Shown piece by piece: positions 23,501 to 29,200 of a DNA stretch of 64,000 nt. A program made the position numbers and the translations under genes. The notes under the pieces are model-generated. The model did no database searches. It was not told where the DNA came from and was given only the letters and a program-made list of their open reading frames with translations. The DNA comes from Leucoraja ocellata. Its lineage: Eukaryota. Position 1 is the first letter of the stretch, and the number at the start of each line of letters is the position of its first letter. The stretch covers positions 62,001 through 126,000 of the forward strand of contig JAWMAR010001700.1 in assembly GCA_036785375.1 (NCBI GenBank). The letters are read 5' to 3'.

Positions 23501-26500
23501 ACTTCCCTCCCTCACCCCACCCCCCTTACCCATACCTCTGTACCCCTCCCTCTCTCTCCCATCCACATCCCCTCCGTTCCTCCGCTCTCCCTGCACCCAT
23601 CTTCCTCCTTCCCCCGTGCCTTCCCCGTACCTGTGTAGCCCATGACCCCCAGACTGACCCCCGCCACCCTCAGCCTCCGTAGCCCCCCGGGGTGGGGTCC
23701 TGAGCCTTGGCAGTAATAGAGTCTGGCCACAAATAGACGGAGAGTGAGGTTGGGCCATCGCTGGAGGAAGGTGGCGAGGCGGTGTGAGCACTGGGCGCAG
23801 GGACTCCAGGAGGCGTAGAGGGTGAGGCACAGGGGCCTGAGGGGGTCGAGGGGCCAGCCAGACAGTATCCGGAGGAGCAGCTCCTCGGCGTGGGAGCCCG
23901 GAATGTTCCGCAAGTAGCCGAAGTCCAGCGAGCGGGAGACGGGGCTGTCCCGGCGCTCCAACACGTAACACACATATGTTTCATGCCTCCCCTTTGCCCA
24001 GCGGGCATTGGTGAAGTGGTACAGGAACTTCTTCTTGGTCATCAGACAGCTATGGGGAGAGAGAGAGAGAGGAGAAACAAAAGAGTGAAACTCCCTCCAC
24101 AGAGCTGCGCCGCCGTATGTTGTAAGCGCGCACCAACATACATTATAGTGGAGTTCCCTCCGCACAGTCCTGCCGCCCACTCCTCCCCGGGGTCTCACAT
24201 ACACCCAGACTGAAGCCCCTCCGCACCGTCCAGACCTTCCCCCCAACCCCACACCGACCTACTCTCTCTCTCCTTCGTCCTCTCTCTTCCTCCCCCTCTC
24301 TCTCTCTCTCTCTCTCTCACACACACCCACACAGAGTGAAGCTGTACTGTGTCCCTTTCTCCATCTCTCTCTCTCTCTCACACACCCACACAGAGTGAAG
24401 CTGCACTGTACTGTGTCCCTTTCTCCATCTCTCTCTCTCACACACACACGCGCATGCACGCACACACACACACAGTGAAGCTCCCTTCCTCCCCCCTCCC
24501 CCTGGCCCAGTGGTAGTGGTACAGGAACGTCTTCTTGCTCTGTCCTGTTAGAGGGAAGGGCAATGCAGGCAAGCCTGGATGACGAGGGAAATTGAGGCTT
24601 TGGTCAAGAGTAGGAGGCTTGGGACAGGTATAGGCAGCAGGGGTTATGTGTATCAATCAGAAGCTCAAAAAGGGAACAGGAAATACGTGTGGCACATAGC
24701 AATAAGGATAATCCCAAGAGATGTTATAAGCACATAAAGGAAAAAGGGTAACCAGGGAGAGAATGGGAAAAAGTAGTCAATCTGTGTGGAGCCATAGGAG
24801 ATGGGTAAGGTCCCCAATGAGTATATCTTTAGCGTGGAGAAACGCAGGAGGATGGGGATACTGAGCTGTCCTGACAGCAGTCGGTGTTAGGGTTGCAGAG
24901 GTGCCGAAGGTCCTGACGAGTGTGGAGATAGACAACTCTCCCGGGCCAGATCAGATCTATGTGAGGATGCAGTGGGAAACTAAACAGGAAAGTACAGGAA
25001 CCCACACGTAGATTTATGCGTGGTCATTAATTAGAGGGAAGGTGCTGGATGACTGGAGGGTGGCAATGTTGCCTCTATTCCAGATGGGCTGCAGGGAAAA
25101 GACTGGGAACTACACGGCAGTGAGCTTAACATCTGTGGTTGGAAAGTTACTGGAGAGTATTCTGAGGGATAGGATGTACCACTTTGATGGACAAGGGCTG
25201 GTTAGCAATAGTCAACAAGGTTCTGAGTGTGGGAGGATGTGTCTCAAATCTGATTGTGTTCTTTTGTGGATGTGGCCAAATGATTTTAGTCGGGCATTTG
25301 ACAAGGTAGGCCGCTCACGAAGATTAGGTCCAAATCAAGAAGAGACAGCTGAATGGATGGAAAATTGGCTCCATGCAAGGAAGCAGATGGTGATGGGGGA
25401 AGATTTATTTTCGGACTGGAGGCCTGTGTGGATCTCAACGTACATGGCAGAGTTTGCAAGTTTGCAGATGTCACACAAGTTGGTGGTATTGTAGATAGTG
25501 AGAATGGTTGTCAAAAATTGCAGCAAGATCTTGATCGGTTGGACAGATGGGGTGAGGATTTTTTAACGGAATTTAATACAGAGAAATGTGAAGTGATGCA
25601 TTTTGGGAGCAGTAACATGGGCAGAACCTACACAGTAAATAGGAGAGAGACTGAGATAAACTCTCTCCCTCTCCCCCCCCCCCCCCCTATCTCTGTCTCA
25701 CTTCCTTCTCTCTCTCCCACTCCCTCCTCCATCTCCCACTCCTTCTCTCCCTCCCTCCGCCCCCTCCCTCCCAGTCACACACACAGTGAAGCCCCTACGG
25801 AAGAAGAGCTGCTCTGATGGCTGGGAGGATTTGAAGCAACATTTCGGAAGGCGACGTGGCGGAGGGGCAGCAAAGGCAGTGAGACTTCTGAGCTCAGATC
25901 ATCACCGGACTCCAGAAGCTTTTTAAAAAAATATTTGAACGCGCTTCCAGAGTCGTGGGAGCGACAGTGGCTGGTGCACTTGGAAATAGGGGAGACAATT
26001 CTGGATCGATATTATGGTTATTTATGTCGAATAACCATAACCCTCCCATAGCAATTCACTTGGCTCAGGTGGGCTTTCTTCTGCAGTTGCATAGGGCTCT
26101 GGTGAGACCACATCTAGAGTATTGTGTACAGTTTTGGTCTCCTAATTTGAGGAAGGGCATCCTTGTGTTTGAGGCAGTGCAGCGTCGGTTCACGAGATTG
26201 ATTCCTGGGATAGCGGGACTGTCATACGAGGAAAGATTGAAAAGATTAGGCTTGTCTTTACTGGAGTTTAGAAGGATGAGGGACGATCTTATAGAAACAT
26301 ATAAAACTATAAAAGGACTGGACAGGTAGATGCAGGAAAAATGTTCCCAATGTTGGGTGAGTCCAGAACCAGGGGCCACAGTCTTAGAATAAAGGCGAGG
26401 TCATTTAAGACTGAGGTGAGAAAAAACGTTTTCACCCAGAGAGTTGTGAATATATGGAATTCCTGGTTGGATTTCACTGTTTGGATTTAAGAGAGAGTTA

Positions 26501-29200: not shown

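What the first reader, a model, noticed from the sequence alone, without database searches (positions are those of the whole stretch)
24478..27700. Array of three truncated, diverged exon-2 cassettes inside intron 1
Seen: three same-strand copies of the exon-2 5' end ([14 protein letters not shown] at 24.5 kb, [18 protein letters not shown] at 27.3 kb, [18 protein letters not shown] at 27.5 kb). Each stops right after the W-x-K/R-G motif and runs into GGGAG...AGCTTCAC/AGCTCCAC, the sequence that precedes the real acceptor. This suggests microhomology-driven tandem duplication. Each reads without a stop in the homologous frame, and copy 2 would join exon 1 in frame through a weak GAG acceptor. 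The copied segment encodes the NLS/loop 1 region. Inference: dead duplication relics (simplest), decoy or poison exons limiting expression of a mutator, or gene-conversion donors for loop 1 analogous to upstream pseudo-V arrays.
Basis: partly seen in the sequence, partly recalled or inferred. Interest (0 to 1): 0.75.

Follow-up and report, generated by a model that had tools for sequence, protein, structure and literature searches.

The report
Decayed exon copies in skate AID
The little skate's antibody-mutating enzyme gene (AID) carries three old, cut-off copies of the start of its second exon inside its first intron, also present in related species, and they are likely decaying leftovers of a local duplication rather than working parts.

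Summary
Observation confirmed. The window is little skate (Leucoraja erinacea) AICDA on the minus strand, intact, four coding exons. Intron 1 holds three partial copies of the intron-1/exon-2 junction (alignment scores 57-67; best of 300 shuffles 33). All stop at W-x-K/R-G; nothing else of the gene is copied. They carry skate-only residues, so they arose after the skate-stingray split, and they are present in two related organisms. Most likely they are relics of a microhomology-seeded tandem duplication: the ancestral acceptor is mutated (copy 3), cut by a LINE (copy 1) or reduced to GAG (copy 2); no good donor follows copies 2-3; cassette-lineage changes and the lack of stops fit neutral drift; a relative's low-depth RNA-like run covers exon 2 but not copies 2-3. 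Gene-conversion donors are unlikely (perfect matches only 9-14 nt). No lymphoid RNA or chromatin data were available.

The parts
29193..29200 (-). AICDA exon 1, coding part (Met-Glu plus two bases), GT donor at 29192
   Evidence: shark and stingray proteins start MDSCLM or MESCLM. The RefSeq skate model starts at Met6 instead
27555..27690 (-). Copy 3 intron flank (homolog of 24076-24176 and on to the acceptor); ancestral acceptor AG now CG at 27556-27555
   Evidence: (62 of 83 aligned bases identical)
27500..27554 (-). Copy 3: exon-2 residues 4-23, net 6 nt shorter; in-frame GAG at 27545-27543
   Evidence: (44 of 54 bases identical)
27449..27499 (-). Tail of copy 3: degenerate branch-point/pyrimidine tract without AG
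27358..27448 (-). Copy 2 intron flank with branch-point-like TTTCAC, pyrimidine tract (20 of 21) and GAG acceptor candidate at 27360-27358
   Evidence: 49 of 65 aligned bases identical
27300..27357 (-). Copy 2: exon-2 residues 8-23; in frame with exon 1 if the GAG were used
   Evidence: (39 of 48 bases identical)
27340..27351 (-). PU.1/Spi-B-like site inside copy 2 (11 of 12 bases of the top PU.1 12-mer), one transition away from the exon sequence
   Evidence: pattern chosen after seeing the sequence
27263..27299 (-). Tail of copy 2: fourth, acceptor-only relic (branch-point-like motif, T tract, TAG), followed by a dispersed repeat at about 26960-27240
   Evidence: repeat depth 2000-3000 against 20-50 for single-copy DNA
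26076..26655 (+). LINE relic between copies 2 and 1
   Evidence: 74-88% matches to many places of the window
25653..25802 (-). Probable displaced upstream flank of copy 1 (inferred)
   Evidence: short matches only
24545..25650 (+). Degenerate LINE (CR1-like by recall) abutting the 5' end of copy 1
   Evidence: (RVT_1, E 0.0002, below the curated cut-off), multi-copy depth
24492..24541 (-). Copy 1: exon-2 residues 7-24, net 9 nt shorter; no homologous acceptor; tail AGCTTCAC at 24482-24475
   Evidence: (36 of 42 bases identical)
23987..24176 (-). Source unit of the duplication: intron flank, branch-point-like motif, acceptor (24051-24050) and first 63 nt of exon 2; GGGAG at about 24096 and 23991 is the candidate microhomology
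23631..24049 (-). AICDA exon 2 (419 nt; holds both zinc motifs)
   Evidence: an RNA-like contig of organism H stops at 24049
22563..22678 (-). AICDA exon 3
20544..20597 (-). AICDA exon 4 with stop codon
   Evidence: matches the end of XP_055521283.1

Best explanation
Three truncated copies of the intron-1/exon-2 junction sit in intron 1 of the intact skate AICDA gene, and they are likely non-functional relics of an old local tandem duplication. Inferred steps: (1) in the skate stem lineage a replication slip or repair event paired the GGGAG 60 nt into exon 2 with a GGGAG upstream of the acceptor and duplicated the junction; (2) this unit, with its fixed end at W-x-K-G, was duplicated again, which would explain the shared end point by descent; (3) lacking a donor and losing or weakening the acceptor, the copies were tolerated as intron; (4) LINEs and a dispersed repeat inserted among them, one cutting copy 1, and the copies have drifted since. 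Shown: the copies, their flanks, the state of their splice signals, the repeats, the skate-only residues, presence in two relatives.
For: Only the junction is copied and all three copies end at the same codon. Acceptors: CG in copy 3, LINE at the 5' end of copy 1, G at -3 in copy 2. Best donor in 27000-27560 pairs with U1 at -4.6 kcal/mol against -8.9, -7.4 and -8.0 for the three real donors. Changes assigned to cassette lineages are 6 synonymous of 16, not above the neutral 20-27% (P 0.08-0.24); the chance of no stop among 16 changes is 0.44-0.51. Residues that are invariant or nearly so in 13 AIDs (K9, F11, Y13, N17, R19, A21) are changed or deleted in the copies. Flank distances give branches of 0.09 (real), 0.21 (copy 2) and 0.22 (copy 3), so the copies evolved faster than the working flank. 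T16 with A18 occurs in 3 of 110 AID-like entries, all skate, and copies 2 and 3 carry both; stingrays have K and V. Organism H's RNA-like run covers exon 2 (depth 3.5-3.9) and has depth 0 over 27239-27655. Internal gene duplications are common: 8-17% of genes (passage in PMC7605655).
Against: All differences against the exon taken together are 12 synonymous of 25 (P 0.002-0.018), and copies 2 and 3 alone 6 of 12 (P 0.02-0.07, post hoc; 4 of 10 and P 0.12-0.27 if two changes are put on the real lineage). Net indels of copies 1 and 3 keep the frame (about 1 in 9 by chance). Copy 2 keeps the second-best pyrimidine tract of 577 AGs in intron 1. The contig spanning copies 2-3 in organism C differs at 32 of 800 sites against 63 of 972 in four other intron pieces (P 0.026), or 36 of 686 without one LINE piece (P 0.26). 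The block has kept CpGs (o/e 0.78) and holds a PU.1-like site. The RNA evidence is thin: depth under 4, another species, contigs drop rare forms.
Confidence: 0.68

Rival explanations
1. The copy 2-3 block has been co-opted as an intronic cis-regulatory element (silencer, enhancer or alternative promoter): an unmethylated CpG-rich stretch 1.5-1.9 kb inside the gene in which one A-to-G change turned the exon's lysine codons into a strong PU.1/Spi-B site. It would work like region 2-1 of mouse Aicda intron 1, by convergence.
For: AAAGAGGAAGT at 27351-27341 is the only copy in the window; 80% of human AAAGAGGAAGTG 12-mers are PU.1-bound (passage in PMC3711439). Mouse Aicda intron 1 has a PU.1-bound repressive element (passages of bioRxiv 2024.05.29.596448) and required enhancers and silencers (abstract of PMC3628980). 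CpG o/e 0.78 at 57% GC over 27250-27700 against 0.54 in the source flank and 0.36-0.44 in the LINEs. Slightly lower divergence in organism C. An X19 contig of depth 6.3 with the allele shared by C and E lies at 27708, just upstream of copy 3. Database models that start at Met6 exist in skates, rays and sharks, and cod has a transcript from a start site that skips exon 1 (passage in PMC9795746).
Against: The motif was picked after seeing the sequence and is one transition from the exon; only copy 2 has it. The CpG interval was also picked post hoc: in a stepped scan 13 of 414 windows met the cut and none lay here. Low divergence can follow from low methylation alone. Whether the site is kept in relatives was not shown. 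The X19 contig may be pre-mRNA or DNA. No chromatin data.
Confidence: 0.15
2. Copy 2 (perhaps copy 3) is a decoy or poison acceptor: U2AF and U2 would bind its intact branch point and pyrimidine tract, engage the exon-1 donor and either hold intron 1 unspliced or yield a short, NMD-bound product, damping AID output.
For: 20 of 21 pyrimidines, rank 2 of 577 AGs in intron 1, branch-point-like TTTCAC kept; in-frame GAG; a second acceptor-like TAG 95 nt downstream. A decoy 3' acceptor alone can act (caspase-2 example, passage in PMC6097662).
Against: G at -3 is a rare acceptor (recalled). No donor near. Copies 1 and 3 lost the ancestral AG. Known decoy exons are 93-98% conserved from chicken to human and need their splice sites; here the flank is 75% identical to its own source and the copies are skate-limited. 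Being in frame is of no use to a poison exon. No contig of X19 covers copies 2-3. Whether the GAG descends from the real AG is unclear: alignment to the real flank says yes, alignment to copy 3 says it came from the Met codon region.
Confidence: 0.11
3. Copies 2 and 3 were once translated alternative 5' pieces (alternative first part of exon 2) under purifying selection and decayed later.
For: Synonymous excess in copies 2-3 (6 of 12); frame-keeping indels; exon-like parts of copies 2 and 3 differ at 8 of 42 sites, flanks at 18 of 55 (P 0.17).
Against: No donor at the shared end point; inclusion before full exon 2 would repeat helix 1; the statistics are post hoc and not significant after allowing for real-lineage changes; stop-free runs of 126 codons occur in 97 of 1000 shuffles.
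Confidence: 0.04
4. The copies are upstream donors for gene conversion of AID's own N-terminus and loop 1, like avian pseudo-V arrays.
For: Same strand, upstream of the target, frame kept, 81-86% identity over the gap-free codons, at the lower limit quoted for conversion (over 80%; passage in PMC3375636).
Against: Homology is only 42-54 coding nt with longest perfect runs of 14, 11 and 9 nt. The first 23 residues are identical in Leucoraja and Amblyraja. Most cassette changes hit conserved residues and would damage the enzyme. Only half of loop 1 is covered. Three donors against over 25 in chicken.
Confidence: 0.02

Closest known systems
Intragenic partial tandem duplication leaving pseudo-exons (e.g. 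Solea senegalensis dmrt1, PMC7605655; unannotated exon-5 copies in SCN-alpha genes, bioRxiv 2025.08.16.670673)
   Same: Local, same-strand copies of exon plus intron flank inside the parent gene, with transposable elements among them.
   Different: Those cases copy whole exons that can be spliced in; here only the first 45-55 nt of a 419-nt exon are copied, with no donor, three times.
Decoy exons of retained introns (SF3B1 intron 4, OGT; PMC6097662)
   Same: Acceptor-like sites deep in a large intron (5.1 kb).
   Different: Known decoys are ultraconserved, have paired splice sites and leave junction reads; none of that was found here.
Mouse Aicda intron-1 region 2 / R2-1 (PMC3628980; bioRxiv 2024.05.29.596448)
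   Same: First intron of the same gene; a PU.1-type GGAA site.
   Different: No homology tested or expected; the skate site derives from exon sequence; no binding or activity shown.
Avian pseudo-V gene conversion arrays (as described in PMC3375636)
   Same: Upstream, same-strand, diverged copies of a coding segment.
   Different: Far shorter, only three, inside the intron of the enzyme's own gene, no conversion tracts seen.
Lamprey CDA1-like expansions and splice variants (passage in PMC8201067)
   Same: Duplication at an AID/APOBEC locus in a fish lineage.
   Different: Those are whole genes with catalytic motifs; these are fragments without any zinc motif.

Membership tests
AICDA (host gene) | Orthology to vertebrate AID with H-x-E and PC-xx-C motifs and the C-terminal export exon | tested here: met
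   100% to XP_055521283.1; best PDB hit human AID E 6e-46; intact 198-codon frame
Intragenic tandem duplication relic (pseudo-exon) | Same-strand homology to an exon that runs on into its intron flank | tested here: met
   Copies 2 and 3: 75% over flank; copy 1: flank cut by a LINE, only short matches
Intragenic tandem duplication relic (pseudo-exon) | Splice signals lost or weak | tested here: met
   CG, LINE cut, GAG; no donor better than -4.6 kcal/mol near copies 2-3
Intragenic tandem duplication relic (pseudo-exon) | Neutral evolution | tested here: inconclusive
   6 of 16 synonymous (P 0.08-0.24); species divergence P 0.026 or 0.26 depending on one LINE piece
Intragenic tandem duplication relic (pseudo-exon) | Absent from mature mRNA | tested here: inconclusive
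   Depth 0 over copies 2-3 in a low-depth RNA-like run of a relative that covers exon 2
Decoy/poison exon | Paired 3' and 5' splice sites | tested here: not met
   Acceptor-like site present at copy 2, no good donor
Decoy/poison exon | Strong sequence conservation | tested here: not met
   4% divergence to organism C, like most other intron pieces (4.3-5.7%, one 9.4%); arose within skates
Decoy/poison exon | Junction reads on NMD inhibition; effect on intron retention | not testable with these tools
   No lymphoid or NMD-blocked RNA among the runs laid
Gene-conversion donor array | Long, highly similar donors | tested here: not met
   42-54 nt at 81-86%; perfect runs 9-14 nt
Gene-conversion donor array | Donor-specific tracts in the target | tested here: inconclusive
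   None at protein level between two skate genera; somatic tracts not testable
PU.1-bound intronic regulatory element (R2-1-like) | High-affinity PU.1 motif | tested here: met
   11 of 12 bases; post hoc
PU.1-bound intronic regulatory element (R2-1-like) | Binding, open chromatin and reporter activity | not testable with these tools
   No such data
PU.1-bound intronic regulatory element (R2-1-like) | Motif conserved in relatives | tested here: inconclusive
   Organisms C and E cover the site, but one search showed only 40 of 320 difference rows and none in copy 2

The most novel reading that the evidence does not exclude
Skates turned duplicated fragments of AID's own exon 2 into a brake on the mutator: copy 2 became a PU.1/Spi-B-bound, CpG-rich intronic control element (and possibly a decoy acceptor), converging on the PU.1 silencer of mouse Aicda intron 1 from coding sequence.
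Probability: 0.15. Interest if true: 0.6.

Novelty: new member of a known kind. Interest (0 to 1): 0.22.

Why it matters
If dead, it is an ordinary intragenic duplication relic, of use only as a molecular fossil: it dates skate-specific changes in AID (T16 and A18 before, T7 after) and warns that PCR primers or probes at the 5' end of exon 2 may cross-react. No description was found in four literature searches. If copy 2 proves to be a regulatory element or decoy, it would show how a cartilaginous fish restrains its antibody mutator and give a clear case of coding sequence co-opted as a control element of its own gene.

Tried and rejected
Assembly artefact: rejected; copies are 14-19% diverged from the exon and a single contig of organism C spans copies 2-3. 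Chance match in low-complexity DNA: rejected (0 of 300 shuffles). Retro-copy: rejected; intron flank is copied and no exon-1 or downstream exon sequence is. RAG-mediated origin: the two CACAGTG heptamers (24471, 25782) have no nonamer (best 5 of 9; consensus recalled). Structured RNA: no Rfam match in 23500-29600; the copy 2-3 strand folds at z -2.35, which pairing of pyrimidine tracts with purine-rich exon starts can explain. Cassette frames have no Pfam match. No RNA holder was listed as on record; raw RNA run X24 had depth 0 on exon 2 (5 in 100 of the run read, tissue unknown, human-like reads filtered), so it says nothing. X16 had depth 0 on exon 2, perhaps by the same filter. LINE reads crowded the tables (15 of 284 joints and 40 of 320 differences shown), so base-level changes in the copies and any low-depth joint could not be read. 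No own genome was held, so genome-wide frequency of such relics and other AID copies were not checked. Earlier findings: nothing on this locus; two unrelated notes. Searches for a paper giving AID loop-1 limits found none. No supplements were read.

Full report
Locus. The window holds histone genes and LINE relics and, on the minus strand, an AID gene. Four coding exons with GT-AG borders (29200-29193, 24049-23631, 22678-22563, 20597-20544) give an open frame of 198 codons. The exon-2 product is 100% identical to Leucoraja erinacea XP_055521283.1 and 98% to the Amblyraja radiata protein; the best solved relative is human AID (E 6e-46). So the gene is skate AICDA and intron 1 spans 24050-29192.

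Observation. BLAST of exon 2 with its flank against the window finds three matches in intron 1 (E 4e-16, 5e-8, 3e-5). The first 63 nt of exon 2 score 57, 67 and 58 against copies 1, 2 and 3; 300 dinucleotide shuffles of intron 1 reach at most 33, and the rest of the window 31. The rest of exon 2 and the other exons have no copy. Over gap-free codons the copies are 36 of 42, 39 of 48 and 44 of 54 bases identical to the exon, with no stop.

Anatomy. Copies 2 and 3 include intron flank at 75% identity, so these are DNA duplications of the junction, not retro-copies. The dot-plot and tail alignments show that the tails of copies 2 and 3 resemble the branch-point/pyrimidine stretch before the real acceptor, and that copy 2's tail is itself an acceptor-only relic ending in TAG at 27263, cut by a dispersed repeat (depth 2000-3000). 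Copy 1's tail matches the AGCTTCAC sites about 300 nt upstream; AGTGAARCT occurs 6 times in this intron, 7 in the window, 1.5 expected. A degenerate LINE (24545-25650; RVT_1 at E 0.0002) abuts copy 1's 5' end, and short matches at 25653-25802 may be its displaced flank (inference). GGGAG lies both at the shared end point and before the branch point, which fits a microhomology-seeded first duplication (inference); one shared end point is most simply one event later re-duplicated.

Splice signals. Of 577 AGs in intron 1 the real acceptor ranks first by pyrimidine content (21 of 21) and copy 2's GAG second (20 of 21, but G at -3). Copy 3's ancestral AG is CG; it has another in-frame GAG. Copy 1's two AGs are out of frame. 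Whether copy 2's GAG descends from the real AG is ambiguous. Used with exon 1 it would read 81 codons to a stop. Among 256 GTs, the best in 27000-27560 pairs with U1 at -4.6 kcal/mol, against -7.4 to -8.9 for the real donors (a crude energy score, not a trained model). GTs in the (TG)n repeats downstream of copy 1 score up to -8.3.

Age. T16 with A18 is found in 3 of 110 AID-like entries with the motif, all skate (the window's own translation and the two skate records); copies 2 and 3 carry both. Stingray and manta AID have K and V there and Ser at 7; copies 1 and 3 keep Ser7 while the working exon has Thr. The duplication therefore follows the skate-stingray split and precedes S7T (inference). 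Four runs of 24 listed were laid on 23625-27780. One contig of organism C spans 26981-27780 with 32 other letters and 8 gap letters; organism E covers copies 2-3 at depth 24-38 and copy 1 with its LINE in one piece (24481-24646; 12 other letters, 10 gap letters). Cassette branches (about 0.21) are several times longer than the per-lineage distance to C or E (0.02-0.04), so presence in relatives is what neutral DNA would show.

Selection. All differences against the exon: 12 of 25 synonymous, above the neutral 20-27% (P 0.002-0.018), but these include shared changes and changes on the working exon. After collapsing shared changes and dropping four that may lie on the exon's branch, 6 of 16 (P 0.08-0.24); no stop has probability 0.44-0.51. 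Copies 2-3 alone give 6 of 12 (P 0.02-0.07) or 4 of 10 (P 0.12-0.27). Conserved residues are hit in every copy. Divergence of the copy 2-3 contig in C is 4.0%, against 4.3, 5.6, 5.7 and 9.4% in the four other listed intron pieces: P 0.026 with all four, 0.26 without the 9.4% LINE piece; that contig also includes about 260 nt of repeat. A second exon piece (22 of 224) was left out of the exon comparison. Constraint is neither shown nor excluded.

RNA. No holder was on record as RNA. X24 had no exon-2 reads and is uninformative. X19 (RNA by guess, organism H) covers most of exon 2 at depth 3.5-3.9 with a contig that stops at 24049, the exon border, leaving 45 letters unlaid and unshown; a join to exon 1 could have matched two more letters, so the partner exon is not identified. 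X19 has depth 0 over 27239-27655 and one contig of depth 6.3 at 27708. This is weak evidence against major inclusion of copies 2-3 and says nothing on rare forms.

Copy 2 holds AAAGAGGAAGT, the only one in the window, 11 of 12 bases of a 12-mer that PU.1 occupies at 80% of human sites (PMC3711439, passages). The block 27250-27700 has CpG o/e 0.78, though no stepped window there met a fixed cut (13 of 414 elsewhere did). Mouse Aicda intron 1 carries a PU.1-bound repressive element (bioRxiv 2024.05.29.596448, passages; PMC3628980, abstract). Motif and interval were chosen after the fact, so this is a lead.

Comparison. It belongs to the common class of intragenic duplications (PMC7605655, passages; bioRxiv 2025.08.16.670673, abstract). 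It fails two defining features of decoy exons (PMC6097662, passages) and the donor-length feature of conversion arrays (PMC3375636, passages). PMC8201067 and PMC9795746 were read as passages, PMC8002816 as passages without use. Searches (listings only) showed no paper on this feature; the library lacks most subscription journals.

Verdict. Real, old, skate-specific partial duplications in AICDA intron 1; most likely relics (0.68); regulatory co-option 0.15, decoy or poison acceptor 0.11, formerly coding 0.04, conversion donors 0.02. New member of a known kind; interest 0.22.

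Noticed in passing
window 23631-24049 (-): Skate AICDA has four coding exons: the intron that splits this stretch in other vertebrates is absent, whereas PMC9795746 calls a 5-exon plan conserved. Shark partial proteins that end at MTYK (P0043, P0047) or run on there (P0008) suggest the same fused exon in sharks.
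   Followed up: partly
window 23631-24049 (-), P0002/P0040: Skate AID is unusually diverged: only 61-65% identical to shark and stingray AIDs, with changes at sites kept in all of them (e.g. TLYASWS for [16 protein letters not shown] for PEG). Catalytic motifs are kept; activity or hotspot choice may differ.
   Followed up: no
window 29193-29200 and 24042-24040 (-): RefSeq skate models start at Met6 (193 aa) although an exon 1 with a good donor exists; Met6-start isoforms are also listed for Hypanus (4 accessions), Mobula, Scyliorhinus and Mustelus, hinting at alternative 5' ends in elasmobranch AICDA.
   Followed up: partly
window about 27670-27775: An X19 (RNA-like, organism H) contig of depth 6.3 with the allele shared by organisms C and E lies upstream of copy 3 while neighbouring unique intron bins are 0; pre-mRNA, DNA or an alternative first exon.
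   Followed up: partly
window 23625-23849: Organism C has two contigs over the 3' half of exon 2 (9 and 22 other letters in 224): a second allele, a paralog or an assembly bubble.
   Followed up: no
window 3381-3839, 9863-10363, 43582-44040, 52023-52439, 53243-53848, 54190-55013: AICDA lies inside a histone gene cluster (H2B, H4, H3, H1 frames read; names by recall of the sequences).
   Followed up: no
window 29397-29407 (-): An ETS-type GGAAGT site about 200 nt upstream of the start codon; 5 of the 6 RRRRRGGAAGT matches of the window lie in or at AICDA, all on its strand.
   Followed up: no
window 24294-24482: A younger 59-nt tandem duplication (91% identical copies) of the AGTGAAGCT/(CA)n unit just upstream of the real acceptor (family D19): the region keeps duplicating.
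   Followed up: no
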